Below, one piece after another: positions 6,878 to 11,582 of a stretch of 41,452 nucleotides of DNA (its first letter is position 1; each line of letters starts with the position of its first letter). Source of the DNA: Candidatus Heimdallarchaeota archaeon. GTDB taxonomy: Archaea; Asgardarchaeota; Heimdallarchaeia; Heimdallarchaeales; Kariarchaeaceae. The position numbers and the translations under genes are program-made. The notes under the pieces are model-generated. The model was not told where the DNA came from. It saw nothing but the letters and a program-made list of their open reading frames with translations, and made no database searches. The DNA lies in contig WAKA01000084.1 of NCBI GenBank assembly GCA_015523565.1, positions 1 through 41,452 on the forward strand, given 5' to 3'.

Positions 6878-8200
6878 GTGCCATCCATTAGCTATCAGAT
6901 GCCAAAACGATTGAGTGGAAGTACCGCCGAAGCCTGTCAAATCCATTTGAGGGCCATCGTTAAAGCAATCAATGACGTCCATCCAAAACGTATGTTCCTC
7001 AAGTTGGATGCTGAACCATTCAATCATGAAAAGCAAGTGTTGATAGCCACTGGAAAAAATGCATTGGAAATGGCTTTGAGTTGCAACGAAAAATCAAAAA
7101 CAGGTTTCCAGAAAGCCTTTATCCTGCAGGTTGATGGATACTTTGATGAACCAAGCCTGAAGTTAATGCCTCCTCATTGGATATTCAGAAAAACAAGCCA
7201 CCCTCTGCCCGATAAAAACACAATTGACGCTTCTGAAGAGATATTGAATTATCTACAATCCATTCCAAAAGACACTATTGTTCATTTTTGTATCAGTGGA
7301 GGGACATCTTCCAGCTTTGCAGTCCCTGAAGTTGGATTGGATTTAAATACTTATCAACAGATAATTTTTGATGCCATTAATTCAGGCTTTGATATCCATG
7401 AACTTAACTATTTACGTGCCTTGATTGATCGAACCAAAGGCGGCAAAACGGCTGAAATGATTCCTGACAATCCAATCTATACTTGGGTGGTTTCAGACGT
7501 AATTGATGACAACCCTGCATATGTTGGATCTGGTCCCACTGTCGCTGGAATGGCTCGACATTACAAAGTTGAGGATTGGCTTCAACAAAAAATCCAATCC
7601 CTAAATTTAAACATAAGATTTGAGTACTTGCTCGAACTTTTTACCATGGCCCAAGAGACAAAAGAAAACCTCTCGGTTTCAATTGTCTCCACAAGAGCTG
7701 ATTTTGCCCGTGCCCTTCAACAAAGATTGGATTCTTCTGGCTTTTCAAATGAAATTGTCTCACTTGATCTTGCAGGTGATATAAAAGAATGTGCCACTGA
7801 TATAATGCAAACCATTGCCGAAAAAGCAAGGTCTGCAACTGATGAGCTTCGCCATACCCTGATCTGGATGGGGGAGCCAACTATTAAACTTGATTCTGAA
7901 GCAACAAAGGGAAAGGGAGGTCGAATTTCCGCCCTTGCAGTATTAATGGCGGAACACCTCCGAAACCATCCTCATATCCTTTTTCTGGGATTGGCTACCG
8001 ATGGAAAAGACGGTAGATCTCCAGACCCTGCTTATGTTGTTTCCTCTGAAACATGGCAACATCTCAGACCTTTAGGGGGGCCCTTTGCAATCCTGAAAAA
8101 AGGAAATTCAGGAAAAGCTCTTTCTTCATTGGGATATGGCATTCCTCTTTCAAATACCCAAATCAATTTGCTAGATCTTTACTTGGCAATTTTCACTTAA
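6878..8200 (+). CDS. Glycerate 2-kinase (MOFRL/DUF4147 family), divergent
   Basis: ATGKNA, SHPLPD, ISGGTSS, KGG, SDV, GSGPT, GKGGR, TDGKDG, N-x-x-D C-terminus. Confidence 0.8.
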   Translation: MPSISYQMPKRLSGSTAEACQIHLRAIVKAINDVHPKRMFLKLDAEPFNHEKQVLIATGKNALEMALSCNEKSKTGFQKAFILQVDGYFDEPSLKLMPPHWIFRKTSHPLPDKNTIDASEEILNYLQSIPKDTIVHFCISGGTSSSFAVPEVGLDLNTYQQIIFDAINSGFDIHELNYLRALIDRTKGGKTAEMIPDNPIYTWVVSDVIDDNPAYVGSGPTVAGMARHYKVEDWLQQKIQSLNLNIRFEYLLELFTMAQETKENLSVSIVSTRADFARALQQRLDSSGFSNEIVSLDLAGDIKECATDIMQTIAEKARSATDELRHTLIWMGEPTIKLDSEATKGKGGRISALAVLMAEHLRNHPHILFLGLATDGKDGRSPDPAYVVSSETWQHLRPLGGPFAILKKGNSGKALSSLGYGIPLSNTQINLLDLYLAIFT

Positions 8201-8262
8201 ACCTTGTCTGTCAAAAAAACATTCATAACTTAATACGTTCGTCCACTATAAGGAAGGAACTC

Positions 8263-9960
8263 TTGAAAAAAACCTTGATCTTTTTTGGTGGTTTGCTTAC
8301 CTTGCTCCTTATTCCAATGGGTGTCCCACCTATGGTTATCGTTGGAGAAACCGTACCATCTCAAACACATTACTTGCCTATGCAACTTAACAGGACAGAC
8401 TTGTTGCCTCTTCTTAACCTTTCTTCAACTTCTGTTGAACGCGGAAACTCGCTTACCGTTTTGATCGCCTTAAGGGACAAAAATAATGCAAGCATATTTT
8501 ATGAGGGCATTCCTTTTTTCCTTTGGATTCATGATGTGGAAAATAATGTCACATCCTCGCTTGTCAACGATACAACAACAAATGGATTCTACAATTACAC
8601 ATTGGAGACTTACTTTACTGAAACCCCACTGCATAAGGGCAACTATACGTTGACCTCCCAATTCAATGTCACTGGCATTGGGATTTTGGAGGTTTCCAGT
8701 TCATTTGAAGTGGTTCTAAATCCCAGCGCAAAAGTTCTGTTCCTTCCTGATTACACTCTTATTGATTTCTTAAAAGTAGATGAAAATTTTACAATTACAA
8801 TAAACATGGAAAATGTGGGTGCTGCGAATGCTTTCAACGTCTCCATAAATATTCAATCAATTGATGAGCCAGTTGGTCTCATTGCCTCCCAATTCCCAAT
8901 CAAAATTCCATTGATGGCGTCACAGACTACATTCTCTTTTAACTTCACCGTTAATCCAACGCGGTTTGGGTTAGGGAAGATATCTTTTTTGACATCTTAT
9001 ACTAATGCAGAAGGCATAAGCAAATTAGGTAGCTTTTCAATTAATTTCCGGATTCTACCAAGATTAATCGCCTCCTTTTCACCCGAAACGGAATTGTTCT
9101 CTGGGAACCTTACAAAATTCAACCTAAGGATTACAAACCTTGAACGCGCAAACTTTACAATCTCATATTCCCTCACATCTGACCTGATCTCATTTTTCAC
9201 CGACTTGGAAACTAATAAACAGCTAATCTTGGCAGGTCAAACCATCTCAAAGAAAGTGACTGGCGCCGTTCTTAAAGACGGCTTGGCTACTGTGACCCTC
9301 AAGGTTATATTTTTCGATGAAGATGGTAGTGGAACGGCTGAAATTCTAATTATTACCCAAACGTTTTCGGTCTCTACCTCTCCACTCAATGTCATTATTA
9401 ATAACCCCAATCCCAATCAATGGCTCTTGGTCATCAATCTGTTATTTCTTGTAATACTTCTTGCCAGTGTCGTTATACTTTATTTTAAACCACAACTCAG
9501 AAATCAAATTTTGAGAAAATTTATGGCTCCCAGCGTGCCTAACTATGAATTGGATACTGAAAATGTTATTGTTGATGGATCAAATGTTGCTTGGGAAAGA
9601 CCAGACAATGAAGGAAAACCCAACCTGAAAAATATTGACCTTGCAGTTTCCACTCTCAAACAGGCAGGATTTAAGGACATTTTGGTCATCGTTGATGCCG
9701 CCCTTCGTTATCAAGTTTCAAATATTGATGAATTTGACAAGGCTGCAAGAAGCGGCAAAATTCACGTAATGCCTGCAAAAGTTTCCGCAGATCAATTTAT
9801 CTTGCGACTCGCCAAGGAACGGAATGCAATGGTTCTTACCAATGACTTGTTCAAGGAATTCAGGGATGAAATGGATGATATTGATGAAAAACGGATACCC
9901 TATACCATTCTGAATGGTATCCTTTACTTGCACCCTTTGGGAAAAAGAAGAAATGAATAG
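8263..9960 (+). CDS. Single-pass membrane protein: signal peptide, Ig/CARDB-like ectodomain, TM helix, C-terminal NYN/PIN (Zc3h12a/Regnase-like) RNase
   Basis: Likely TTG start at 8263 after AAGGAAGGA. MKKTLIFFGGLLTLLL signal; ENVGAANAFNV CARDB-like motif; TM WLLVINLLFLVILLASVVILYF then basic residues; VIVDGSNVA...VDAA...SADQFIL...TNDLFKEF. Confidence 0.85.
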   Translation: MKKTLIFFGGLLTLLLIPMGVPPMVIVGETVPSQTHYLPMQLNRTDLLPLLNLSSTSVERGNSLTVLIALRDKNNASIFYEGIPFFLWIHDVENNVTSSLVNDTTTNGFYNYTLETYFTETPLHKGNYTLTSQFNVTGIGILEVSSSFEVVLNPSAKVLFLPDYTLIDFLKVDENFTITINMENVGAANAFNVSINIQSIDEPVGLIASQFPIKIPLMASQTTFSFNFTVNPTRFGLGKISFLTSYTNAEGISKLGSFSINFRILPRLIASFSPETELFSGNLTKFNLRITNLERANFTISYSLTSDLISFFTDLETNKQLILAGQTISKKVTGAVLKDGLATVTLKVIFFDEDGSGTAEILIITQTFSVSTSPLNVIINNPNPNQWLLVINLLFLVILLASVVILYFKPQLRNQILRKFMAPSVPNYELDTENVIVDGSNVAWERPDNEGKPNLKNIDLAVSTLKQAGFKDILVIVDAALRYQVSNIDEFDKAARSGKIHVMPAKVSADQFILRLAKERNAMVLTNDLFKEFRDEMDDIDEKRIPYTILNGILYLHPLGKRRNE

Positions 9961-10004
9961 CACAAATCCGAAAAGCTTTATCTTTATTGGGAGAGCTTAC
10001 TCTG

Positions 10005-11582
10005 ATGAAAAAAACATGGTTTTTTATAATGATTCTCCTAATTGGTTTTTTTCCACAAGGTTCCTCACAAACTATTTCCTCTCCAAATGTCATTCTCATG
10101 ATTGGAGATGGGATGGGACCAGAGGAGATAAAGTTGGCAAGTCTTGTTGAATACGGCGCTGAAAACCTTTCAATTATGGATCAATTCCCAGTACAGGCAT
10201 TTTATAAAACAGACAATGTTGATGGGGAATTAACTGACAGTGCTGCGGGTGGAACTGCCATTGCCACTGGGCAATTGACTAAAAATTCAGTCATTTCCAT
10301 GGATGCCACCAAATCAATTCGGATAAAAACAATTTTGGAATACCTGAGAGATGATTTTGGATATTCCACTGGCTTGATCACAACCACCGAATTTGCCCAT
10401 GCAACTCCTGCTGTTTTTGGTAGTCATACCACCAATAGAGATAACAAAAAAGAAATCAAGGATCAATTACTTTCCAGCGGCATTGACCTAATCCTTGGAG
10501 GGGGAAGGGAAGTTTCTTATGTGGGGGGTGCTGATGCCGCCAAATCCATGGGTGAAAAATACGGGTATACTACAGTTACGAATGTAAATGAACTTAATTC
10601 CCTTGACAACTCATCCGACAAGGTTCTTGGTGTATTCGGAACCATAAACATGCCTTTTGAACTTGAACGGAACCCTTCCGTGGATCCTAGTTTGATAGAA
10701 ATGACTTCTTTTGGCCTTAAATATTTGCAAAGCAAGAACAATCCATTTTTTGTAATGATTGAAGGTGGGCGGATTGACCAAGCAGGTCATTTGCCTCTAT
10801 ACTTTGAAAATAAAACTCTGTACAACGCAATGGAAACCATAATGTTCGAAAAATCTGTTCGACTTGCCTTGGATTTTGCCAAAAAAGTTGGCAACACGAT
10901 TGTTGTTGTTGCGGCAGACCATGAGACAGGTGGATTACAAATCCATGATTACTCCAATTTGGACAATGACTTGCCAGAAGAAGGACTTTCTCGCGATGAA
11001 AACAATAGGAGAAGAATTGCGCGAGTAAATGAAATTAATGCTTCATGGTTAAGTACATCGCATACCCCTACACCAGTTAAATTTTTTGGATACGGCTCTG
11101 ATTTTGGAAATATCGTGATTGATACTATTGATGATGTGTTTTGGGCAATCAATGCTGCTTTGGGATCATTTCCAACAATTCGAAATGATAAATGGTCATT
11201 TACAGACTCTTCAATATCTCTTTCATTCTCGATTGAAGACCGTGATTATTCCACAACTGGATATGAAGTTACTGGGGAGTTTGAAAATGGCTCTACTTAT
11301 TCTTCAGGAATAATCCCCGTCAACCTTGAAAAGAATGATTTCTTCAATGTGACAATCCCCATAACCAATTCAAGCCAAAGATTTACCTTTCAAATAAAGG
11401 TTTTTGATGGAACCGAAAGTACCAGTTCTCTGAAAAAAGTATTTGACGGCATTGAAGAAACTTCCATGAATTCTTCCATTTCTTCATCAGTTGAAAATGC
11501 AGTACTCTCTCCCATATTTGCGATTGCATTTGGAATTCCTTTAATCATCAGGAAACGGAAAGTCCTTCAACAAACTTCCTAA
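10005..11582 (+). CDS. Secreted/surface-anchored alkaline phosphatase (PhoA superfamily) with C-terminal beta-rich domain and sorting-type tail
   Basis: Signal MKKTWFFIMILLIG; IGDGMG, TDSAAGGTA, HATPA, EGGRIDQAGH, ADHETGG; tail SPIFAIAFGIPLIIRKRK. Confidence 0.92.
   Translation: MKKTWFFIMILLIGFFPQGSSQTISSPNVILMIGDGMGPEEIKLASLVEYGAENLSIMDQFPVQAFYKTDNVDGELTDSAAGGTAIATGQLTKNSVISMDATKSIRIKTILEYLRDDFGYSTGLITTTEFAHATPAVFGSHTTNRDNKKEIKDQLLSSGIDLILGGGREVSYVGGADAAKSMGEKYGYTTVTNVNELNSLDNSSDKVLGVFGTINMPFELERNPSVDPSLIEMTSFGLKYLQSKNNPFFVMIEGGRIDQAGHLPLYFENKTLYNAMETIMFEKSVRLALDFAKKVGNTIVVVAADHETGGLQIHDYSNLDNDLPEEGLSRDENNRRRIARVNEINASWLSTSHTPTPVKFFGYGSDFGNIVIDTIDDVFWAINAALGSFPTIRNDKWSFTDSSISLSFSIEDRDYSTTGYEVTGEFENGSTYSSGIIPVNLEKNDFFNVTIPITNSSQRFTFQIKVFDGTESTSSLKKVFDGIEETSMNSSISSSVENAVLSPIFAIAFGIPLIIRKRKVLQQTS

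What the first reader, a model, noticed from the sequence alone, without database searches (positions are those of the whole stretch)
8263..9960. Receptor-like ribonuclease: glycosylated Ig-like ectodomain, one TM helix and a cytoplasmic Regnase-type NYN domain
Seen: a signal peptide and an approximately 360-aa beta-rich region with 13 N-x-S/T sequons, with none after the TM. A single TM helix (9421-9486) is followed by basic residues (KPQLRNQILRK), then VIVDGSNVA / SADQFIL / TND. Established: these motifs are the acidic catalytic positions of Zc3h12a/Regnase-type NYN (PIN-like) RNases, normally soluble. One Asp of Regnase YDD is Ala here. Inference: type I topology puts the RNase in the cytoplasm under possible control of an extracellular domain. 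That is the logic of eukaryotic IRE1 built from unrelated parts. It could be a surface-triggered RNA-decay or antiviral system in an Asgard-like archaeon. I do not know of a characterised example.
Basis: partly seen in the sequence, partly recalled or inferred. Interest (0 to 1): 0.82.

Follow-up and report, generated by a model that had tools for sequence, protein, structure and literature searches.

The report
Membrane-anchored Regnase-type RNase of Heimdallarchaea
This Heimdall-group Asgard archaeal gene encodes a single-pass surface glycoprotein with three antibody-like domains outside the cell and an apparently intact Regnase-type RNA-cutting domain just under the membrane; it looks like a receptor wired to an RNase and is a near-universal gene of one archaeal order, but neither RNA cutting nor signalling has been shown.

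Summary
ORF 8263-9960 (+, TTG start) encodes a 565-aa protein with these parts, in order:
- a signal peptide;
- three beta-sandwich domains (AF2 pLDDT 91.5) carrying 13 N-glycosylation sequons;
- one TM helix;
- a basic juxtamembrane linker of about 30 aa;
- a C-terminal Zc3h12a-type NYN domain (Pfam PF11977, 64 bits; model TM-score about 0.69 to ZC3H12C, Regnase-1 and KHNYN).

Four of Regnase-1's five acidic active-site positions are kept, together with the equivalent of N144 and an extra family-invariant Asp (D478).

The fusion is real. It is present, mostly as a single copy, in 37 of 43 other sampled genomes of one Heimdallarchaeia order, including two complete genomes. It was not found elsewhere in the 301 Asgard genomes sampled. 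The ectodomain occurs only on this gene.

The nearest NYN relatives are other membrane-anchored NYN proteins from Thermofilaceae. Neighbouring genes are housekeeping genes, and PADLOC gave no match.

My best reading is a core, membrane-tethered endoribonuclease whose activity probably depends on self-association. Ligand gating in the manner of IRE1 stays possible but untested, and an antiviral role is disfavoured. I found no publication on the family. This scan had already flagged the same family in two other genomes, with the same verdict.

The parts
8250..8259 (+). Purine-rich Shine-Dalgarno-like AAGGAAGGAA ahead of the TTG start at 8263
   Evidence: Read from the sequence. Its function is inferred.
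8263..8346 (+). Signal peptide (residues 1-28): MKK n-region plus a hydrophobic core. Cleavage is inferred.
   Evidence: Hydropathy. Homologues show signal-peptidase-like sites such as ...PSQA/T and ...PAQS/I. No SignalP-type tool was available.
8401..8715 (+). Ectodomain beta-sandwich D1 (residues 47-151). It is membrane-distal, macroglobulin(MG)-like, and the fastest-evolving part.
   Evidence: AF2 model m3a2f230842ae, pLDDT 91.5. VIA Z 12.7, rmsd 2.1, 96 aligned residues to an alpha2-macroglobulin MG domain, 2p9r. Identity to relatives is 25-53%.
8734..9054 (+). Ectodomain beta-sandwich D2 (residues 158-264), CARDB/TRAP-beta-like, with the invariant N-x-G-x-x-N-A-F motif
   Evidence: Sub-threshold Pfam hits to TRAP_beta (20.5 bits, cut-off 22.4) and CARDB (15.1 bits). 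Invariant N184, G186, N189, A190 and F191. Model. Fold matches Z about 10.
9064..9375 (+). Ectodomain beta-sandwich D3 (residues 268-371), membrane-proximal, with an invariant F-x-D-x-D-G loop
   Evidence: Model. VIA Z 15.0, rmsd 1.8, 106 aligned residues to the C-terminal sandwich of an archaeal amylopullulanase, 7e1y. Invariant F350, D352, D354 and G355.
9421..9486 (+). Single transmembrane helix (residues 387-408, WLLVINLLFLVILLASVVILYF)
   Evidence: Kyte-Doolittle peak of 3.2. The positive-inside rule is met. A TM is present at the same place in about 30 clusters.
9487..9573 (+). Basic juxtamembrane helix and linker (residues 409-437). Its length is constrained across the family.
   Evidence: Length 30 +/- 2.6 aa (range 26-39) in 28 clusters at 50% identity or less. 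The model shows a helix at residues 410-421.
9559..9927 (+). Zc3h12a-type NYN (PIN-like) endoribonuclease domain (residues 433-555). Active-site residues are D438 (nt 9574-9576), N441, D478 (9694-9696), D510 (9790-9792), D528 (9844-9846) and E532 (9856-9858).
   Evidence: Pfam 64.1 bits. PDB sequence hits to ZC3H12C, KHNYN and Regnase-1. AF2 pLDDT 92.2. Foldseek TM-score 0.65-0.70 and 24-27% identity to ZC3H12B/C, Regnase-1 and KHNYN. The listed residues are invariant or at least 90% conserved.

Best explanation
The gene encodes a type I single-pass membrane glycoprotein of a Heimdallarchaeia archaeon. A Sec signal peptide directs three tandem N-glycosylated beta-sandwich domains to the cell surface. 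One TM helix and a length-constrained, basic linker of about 30 residues hold a Zc3h12a-type NYN (PIN-like), metal-dependent endoribonuclease against the cytoplasmic face of the membrane.

Shown here: the architecture, the topology signals, the fold, conservation of the active site, and the status of the gene as a core, mostly single-copy gene of one order.

Inferred mechanism: the protein is a membrane-tethered endoribonuclease that cuts RNA close to the membrane, for instance transcripts being translated there. In this it is comparable in logic to bacterial RNase Y. As in Regnase-1, activity probably needs NYN-NYN self-association. The TM helix and the ectodomain stalk would set that association by clustering the protein in the plane of the membrane. 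Whether an external ligand changes the clustering is open.
For: Architecture and topology.

The active site is largely intact:
- D438 = D141, N441 = N144, D510 = D226, D528 = D244, E532 = D248 and K531 = R247;
- these come from the HMMER alignment to ZC3H12C, combined with Regnase-1 numbering from PMC4772114 and PMC5499597;
- all are invariant or at least 90% conserved across 8 to 32 family members, together with an extra invariant D478.

Fold: TM-score about 0.69 to solved ZC3H12B/C, Regnase-1 and KHNYN domains.

Core-gene pattern:
- full-length matches in 37 of 43 other genomes of the order, usually one per genome, including two complete genomes;
- only NYN-alone hits elsewhere in the 301 Asgard genomes sampled.

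The ectodomain profile finds only this same gene in 39 of 46 genomes of the order, including the window's own genome, and only NYN-bearing proteins in the 5.8-billion-protein set.

Membrane tethering appears older than the ectodomain:
- the family's NYN clade (SH-aLRT 97) has as nearest outgroups (support 82-84) Thermofilaceae and other proteins with an N-terminal TM plus coiled coil, or a short ectodomain plus TM.

Linker length is constrained. Regnase-1's PIN domain needs head-to-tail dimerisation for activity (PMC4772114). Neighbours are housekeeping genes and no partner is conserved.
Against: - No biochemical data exist. One of the five Regnase acidic residues (D225) is Ala or Gly throughout the family, so activity or metal use could differ.
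- The conserved, three-domain ectodomain exclusive to this gene is more than a plain anchor needs. That leaves room for a sensing function.
- No substrate, RNA-binding accessory domain or partner gene was identified.
- Model coordinates could not be inspected, so the position of D478 in the active site is inferred from secondary-structure placement only.
- No multimer prediction was possible.
Confidence: 0.55

Rival explanations
1. Ligand-gated receptor RNase, an enzyme-linked receptor with IRE1-like logic. Binding of an external ligand (a surface glycan, an envelope or S-layer component, another cell, or unfolded secreted protein) to the beta-sandwich ectodomain drives dimerisation or clustering. 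That assembles active NYN dimers inside and triggers RNA cleavage.
For: - The ectodomain architecture is conserved across the order and occurs only on this gene.
- The tether between TM and NYN is short and length-constrained.
- Regnase-1's PIN domain requires dimerisation (PMC4772114).
- A second, independent ectodomain-TM-NYN design exists in another Asgard genome: PQQ beta-propeller, TM, then NYN.
- Some genomes carry two divergent paralogues.
- The membrane-distal domain D1 evolves fastest.
Against: - No classical prokaryotic sensor fold was found, only generic MG/CARDB/E-set sandwiches.
- The nearest relatives work with bare anchors plus coiled coils.
- No ligand, dimer model or regulated output was tested.
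Confidence: 0.25
2. Antiviral or abortive-infection sensor. Virus attachment to the surface domains activates the RNase, which degrades host or viral RNA.
For: - Eukaryotic Zc3h12a-family RNases (MCPIP1) have antiviral roles (the abstract of PMC3597685 as listed; PMC5499597).
- The exposed domains diverge fast.
Against: - The gene is near-universal and mostly single-copy across an order, unlike the patchy distribution of defence genes.
- Synteny with housekeeping genes: glycerate kinase-like, alkaline phosphatase, AlaX and proteasome genes.
- No PADLOC match for the protein or for 7 neighbours.
Confidence: 0.07
3. Primarily a surface, adhesion or envelope protein. Its cytoplasmic NYN domain is non-catalytic and serves as an RNA- or protein-binding anchor.
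For: - The D225 equivalent is lost.
- Beta-sandwich arrays are typical of adhesins and envelope proteins.
Against: - The NYN domain is the most conserved part, at 48-78% identity against 22-74% across the three ectodomain domains.
- D438, N441, D478, D510, D528 and E532 are invariant or nearly so. This is hard to explain without catalysis.
Confidence: 0.08

Closest known systems
Eukaryotic Zc3h12a-type NYN RNases: Regnase-1/MCPIP1 (ZC3H12A), ZC3H12B-D, KHNYN, N4BP1 (Pfam PF11977)
   Same: - The same nuclease domain family by HMM (64 bits) and by fold (TM-score about 0.69, 24-27% identity).
- The equivalents of D141, N144, D226, D244, D248 and R247 are kept.
   Different: - No CCCH zinc finger (the protein has no cysteine at all), and no NTD, KH or UBA domains.
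- The D225 equivalent is Ala, and there is an extra invariant Asp after strand 2.
- The protein is membrane-integral with an extracellular domain, whereas the eukaryotic proteins are soluble.
- By sequence it is closer to prokaryotic NYN proteins (35-40% identity) than to eukaryotic ones.
IRE1 (ER stress sensor kinase/RNase)
   Same: Overall logic only: a type I single-pass protein with a sensor-like domain on the far side of the membrane and an RNase on the cytoplasmic side. In IRE1 the RNase is switched on by oligomerisation (established knowledge).
   Different: The parts are unrelated. There is no kinase or KEN domain (Pfam), and the ectodomain is three beta-sandwiches, not the IRE1 lumenal fold. 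Activation by clustering is not shown here.
Bacterial membrane-anchored endoribonucleases: RNase Y (N-terminal TM), and PIN-TRAM proteins with four TM helices (COG4956, PMC5499597)
   Same: An endoribonuclease held at the cytoplasmic face of the membrane as a conserved, core-type gene. COG4956 also has a PIN-like catalytic fold.
   Different: Those proteins have N-terminal anchors and no large ectodomain. RNase Y uses KH and HD domains. Here the anchor precedes a C-terminal NYN domain and follows a glycosylated ectodomain of about 360 aa.
Other archaeal membrane-anchored Zc3h12a-like NYN proteins. From Thermofilaceae: P0058 and P0139, annotated 'hypothetical protein'. P0151 and P0057 are from unnamed metagenome assemblies. 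Also the Asgard PQQ-propeller-TM-NYN protein P0165.
   Same: The same NYN subfamily tethered to the membrane. P0058, P0139, P0151 and P0057 are the nearest outgroups in the NYN tree.
   Different: They have a bare N-terminal TM plus coiled coil, a short unrelated ectodomain, or a beta-propeller. None has the three-sandwich ectodomain. The PQQ form branches elsewhere in the tree, so it is an independent fusion.

Membership tests
RNase_Zc3h12a NYN domain family (PF11977) | Match to the family HMM above the curated gathering score | tested here: met
   64.1 bits against a cut-off of 23, residues 433-555. 68.2 bits in the six-frame genome search.
RNase_Zc3h12a NYN domain family (PF11977) | PIN-like alpha/beta fold superposable on solved Zc3h12a-type domains | tested here: met
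   AF2 pLDDT 92.2. Foldseek E 3e-9, TM-score 0.65-0.70 to 7ndh, 7ndj, 8wzc, 6sjd, 3v33 and 5h9v.
RNase_Zc3h12a NYN domain family (PF11977) | Acidic active-site constellation (MCPIP1 D141, D225, D226, D244, D248, plus N144) | tested here: inconclusive
   Four of five acidic positions plus N144 are kept and invariant. The D225 equivalent is Ala or Gly family-wide. An extra invariant D478 may compensate. Activity was not assayed.
Regnase/ZC3H12 subfamily (eukaryotic) | CCCH zinc finger directly after the NYN domain | tested here: not met
   The protein ends about 10 residues after the NYN domain and has no cysteine.
IRE1 family | Cytoplasmic Ser/Thr kinase domain plus KEN RNase domain | tested here: not met
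   No kinase or Ribonuc_2-5A hit in Pfam at E up to 1. The cytoplasmic part is a 157-aa NYN domain only.
RNase Y | N-terminal TM followed by KH and HD domains | tested here: not met
   No KH or HD hit. The anchor lies N-terminal of a C-terminal NYN domain and follows an ectodomain.
Known anti-phage defence systems (PADLOC-DB 2.0) | Match to a defence-protein HMM, or location in a defence gene cluster | tested here: not met
   No hit at E up to 0.01 for the protein or for 7 neighbours.
CARDB / TRAP-beta type E-set domains (ectodomain D2) | Match above the Pfam gathering score | tested here: inconclusive
   TRAP_beta 20.5 bits (cut-off 22.4) and CARDB 15.1 bits (cut-off 22.7). The fold is a generic beta-sandwich. 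Atlas leads point to CARDB clusters at scores of 0.81-0.84 only.

The most novel reading that the evidence does not exclude
This is an archaeal enzyme-linked receptor. Ligand- or contact-induced clustering of an Ig-like ectodomain assembles active NYN dimers and converts a cell-surface event directly into cytoplasmic RNA cleavage. That would be a eukaryote-style single-pass receptor design, arising in the archaeal group closest to eukaryotes, wired to a Regnase-type RNase rather than a kinase.
Probability: 0.25. Interest if true: 0.85.

Novelty: new variant of a known kind. Interest (0 to 1): 0.62.

Why it matters
Archaeal RNA decay is poorly mapped, and I know of no membrane-bound endoribonuclease described for Asgard archaea; the library searches found none.

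A core, order-wide protein that places a Regnase-type RNase directly under the membrane, behind a glycosylated Ig-like ectodomain, could be one of two things. It may be a new organiser of membrane-proximal RNA turnover. Or it may be the first single-pass receptor that signals straight to RNA cleavage.

Both readings bear on how Heimdall-group archaea, the closest known relatives of eukaryotes, couple their cell surface to gene expression. The cytoplasmic domain is small (157 aa), so the question is directly testable in vitro.

Tried and rejected
- Misassembly or chance fusion: rejected. The full architecture recurs at 28-63% identity in many independent assemblies, including two closed genomes.
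- Upstream ATG at 8053 as the start: rejected. It overlaps the upstream gene, and homologues begin at the TTG-equivalent MKK.
- Conserved operon partner: none found. Alkaline phosphatase lies downstream only in close relatives (L001, L003). AlaX-like, PIN_12-like and proteasome neighbours recur only in subsets.
- The ectodomain on other effectors, or alone: not found. One search scored only the 8000 best candidates.
- A specific structural analogue of the ectodomain: only generic beta-sandwich matches to MG domains, transglutaminase barrels, HAP2 domain III and TRAP-beta, at Z 10-15 per single domain.
- The TRAP-beta link: sub-threshold and not domain-consistent, so not pursued.
- Defence annotation: none.
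- Literature: six full-text searches (NYN domain/transmembrane/archaea, Zc3h12a/Asgard, NYN/Heimdall, Regnase/archaeal, Asgard/receptor/ribonuclease, and one on Regnase active-site residues) found no description of the family.
The context of the Thermofilaceae relatives could therefore not be read.
- dN/dS per domain: not attempted, because the closest relatives are only about 60% identical and synonymous sites are saturated.
- Model coordinates are not exposed, so active-site geometry and possible dimer interfaces could not be measured.

Full report
**1. The gene.**
The open frame 8053-9960 (+) overlaps the upstream gene, which ends at 8200. The TTG at 8263 follows AAGGAAGGAA. It gives a 565-aa protein (P0001) whose N-terminus matches the MKKT... 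starts of its homologues. The collection's own gene call (P0002, 547 aa) is 18 residues shorter, which by length fits a start at the Met-19 codon and would truncate the signal peptide.

**2. The observation.**
- Hydropathy shows an N-terminal hydrophobic segment and one strong TM helix at residues 387-408 (nt 9421-9486).
- The TM has 0 K/R in the 15 residues before it and 4 in the 15 after (KPQLRNQILRK).
- There are 13 N-x-S/T sequons before the TM and none after.
- Shuffles of the ectodomain give 6.6 +/- 2.2 sequons (P=0.005).
- Across 27 family clusters the density is 3.1 per 100 aa outside and 0.38 inside.
- Sequon positions are often conserved.
- The genome has an STT3/AglB gene.
- The protein contains no cysteine.

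**3. The cytoplasmic domain.**
- Pfam PF11977 (RNase_Zc3h12a) scores 64.1 bits against a cut-off of 23.
- phmmer against PDB sequences finds ZC3H12C, KHNYN, ZC3H12B and Regnase-1.
- An AF2 model built on a 58-sequence alignment has pLDDT 92.2.
- The model superposes on those structures at TM-score 0.65-0.70 and 24-27% identity. PRORP nucleases are the next tier of matches.

The residue mapping comes from the HMMER alignment, with Regnase-1 residue numbers taken from PMC4772114 and the five-Asp site listed in PMC5499597:

| This protein | Regnase-1 |
|---|---|
| D438 | D141 |
| N441 | N144 |
| A509 | D225 |
| D510 | D226 |
| D528 | D244 |
| K531 | R247 |
| E532 | D248 |

D438, N441, D510, D528 and E532 are invariant in 8 sequences and at least 90% conserved in 32. 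So is an additional D478, which lies just after strand 2. The domain therefore looks catalytically competent, with one substituted acidic position. This is an inference; no assay exists.

**4. The ectodomain.**
- An AF2 model of residues 29-386 (32-sequence alignment) has pLDDT 91.5 and pTM 0.77. It consists of three beta-sandwiches.
- Foldseek and VIA-align give only generic matches, at Z 10-15 per single domain and 8-16% identity:
  - macroglobulin domains of alpha2-macroglobulin and complement;
  - transglutaminase barrels;
  - HAP2 domain III;
  - an archaeal amylopullulanase sandwich;
  - TRAP-beta.
- Pfam gives sub-threshold TRAP_beta and CARDB hits on D2.
- The Atlas search gives CARDB-type leads below 0.85.
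- No recognised ligand-binding sensor fold is present.
- D1 is the most divergent domain, and the NYN domain is the most conserved.

**5. Distribution.**
- Seven full-length homologues at 31-63% identity were found by word search.
- About 30 clusters (at 50% identity) with the same signal, roughly 360-aa ectodomain, TM and NYN layout were found by exhaustive HMMER with the NYN domain.
- In GTDB representative genomes, every full-architecture hit whose record title gives a lineage is a Heimdallarchaeota MAG. These include the closed genomes of Ca. Heimdallarchaeum endolithica and aukensis.
- One NCBI record is named 'NYN domain-containing protein [Candidatus Kariarchaeaceae archaeon]'.
- In 301 sampled genomes of the phylum, full-length matches (E at most 1e-64, frames of 570-650 aa) occur only in the window's own order: 37 of 43 other genomes, usually one per genome.
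- Elsewhere there are only NYN-alone matches, either short soluble proteins of 165-200 aa or long soluble fusions.
- The window's genome has this gene plus one soluble 171-aa NYN frame.
- An ectodomain-only profile finds the same gene in 39 of 46 genomes of the order, including the window's own. Everything else it finds is a weak single-domain hit.
- In the large protein set that profile finds only NYN-bearing proteins and one fragment.

The ectodomain and the RNase are thus an obligate, order-wide pair.

**6. Relatives with other designs.**
I built an NYN-domain tree of 163 sequences and 136 columns with a quick IQ-TREE search, so many forks are unresolved.
- The family forms one clade (SH-aLRT 97).
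- Its nearest outgroups (support 82-84) are P0058, P0139, P0151 and P0057.
- These are membrane-anchored NYN proteins. They carry an N-terminal TM plus coiled coil, or a signal, short ectodomain and TM.
- Two of them, P0058 and P0139, are from Thermofilaceae MAGs and are annotated 'hypothetical'. The source organism of P0151 and P0057 is unknown.
- A PQQ beta-propeller-TM-NYN protein from another Asgard genome branches elsewhere, so it is an independent fusion.

Membrane tethering of this NYN lineage is therefore recurrent. It probably predates the three-sandwich ectodomain.

**7. Context.**
- Flanking genes are a DUF4147/MOFRL glycerate-kinase-like gene, a membrane-anchored alkaline phosphatase, a cytidylyltransferase-family (CTP_transf_like) gene and an alpha/beta hydrolase.
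- Synteny holds only among close relatives. More distant loci have AlaX-like, PIN_12-like, MarR-like and proteasome neighbours.
- PADLOC gave no match for the protein or its neighbours.

**8. Mechanism.**
Shown:
- the architecture, topology signals, fold and conserved active site;
- a tether between TM and NYN of constrained length, 30 +/- 2.6 aa;
- core-gene distribution.

Inferred:
- the protein is a membrane-tethered endoribonuclease acting on membrane-proximal RNA;
- it probably needs NYN self-association, as Regnase-1 does (PMC4772114).

Open: whether the ectodomain merely positions or clusters the enzyme, or transmits an external signal as in the IRE1-like reading. The core-gene pattern, the housekeeping context and the lack of a PADLOC match argue against a dedicated antiviral system.

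**9. Novelty.**
Six full-text searches found no description of this family. The 2017 PIN-superfamily survey lists only 23 archaeal PF11977 members, and gives the function of the bacterial members as unknown.

This scan had already flagged the same family in two other genomes. Its follow-up agents reached the same verdict, and my tests agree independently.

I class the finding as a new variant of a known kind: a known RNase domain and the known principle of membrane-anchored RNases, in a previously undescribed receptor-like architecture.

Noticed in passing
window 8263-8319: The collection's own gene call for this protein (P0002, 547 aa) is 18 residues shorter than the TTG-8263 protein. By length it would start at the Met-19 codon and remove most of the signal peptide. 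Homologue N-termini support the TTG at 8263.
   Followed up: partly
window 9987-11582 (+): The gene 26 nt downstream encodes a 531-aa alkaline phosphatase (Pfam, 214 bits) with an N-terminal signal, several sequons and a C-terminal TM anchor. It keeps its position next to the NYN gene in L001 and L003 only.
   Followed up: partly
L029:157-2169 (-) (G053:C1; = P0165/P0051): Another Asgard genome encodes a signal peptide, PQQ-type beta-propeller, Ig-like domain, TM and NYN domain (670 aa). This is an independent receptor-like NYN fusion, annotated only as a PQQ-repeat protein.
   Followed up: partly
P0058, P0139, P0151, P0057 (database proteins; P0058 and P0139 are from Thermofilaceae MAGs): These are small archaeal NYN proteins with an N-terminal TM followed by a coiled coil, or a short ectodomain plus TM. 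They are the nearest outgroups of the Heimdall family in the NYN tree. The coiled coils hint that dimerisation matters.
   Followed up: partly
L033:147-3152 (-), L034:186-3215 (-), L039:206-1720 (+), L040:165-1556 (-): Other Asgard genomes carry long soluble NYN fusions: about 1000-aa proteins with an N-terminal P-loop motif (GKNGVGKS), and about 460-500-aa proteins that look TPR-like at the N-terminus.
   Followed up: no
window 9433-9438 (TM residues I391-N392) and family TM segments: An Asn sits in the core of the TM helix in 9 of 28 family clusters. Many others have small-xxx-small motifs. Both are known drivers of TM helix association, but I ran no chance control.
   Followed up: no
L005:2142-3959 (-), with homologues in L006, L008 and L009: A 605-aa protein with a sub-threshold N-terminal PIN_12 hit (26 bits, cut-off 32) recurs just upstream of the NYN gene in four loci of the sister family. 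It is not present in the first 20 kb of this window.
   Followed up: no
G000:C47:1721-2068 (-) (L026): This is the second, soluble Zc3h12a-type NYN gene of the same genome (171-aa frame, 35 bits). It is the form common in other Asgard lineages.
   Followed up: no
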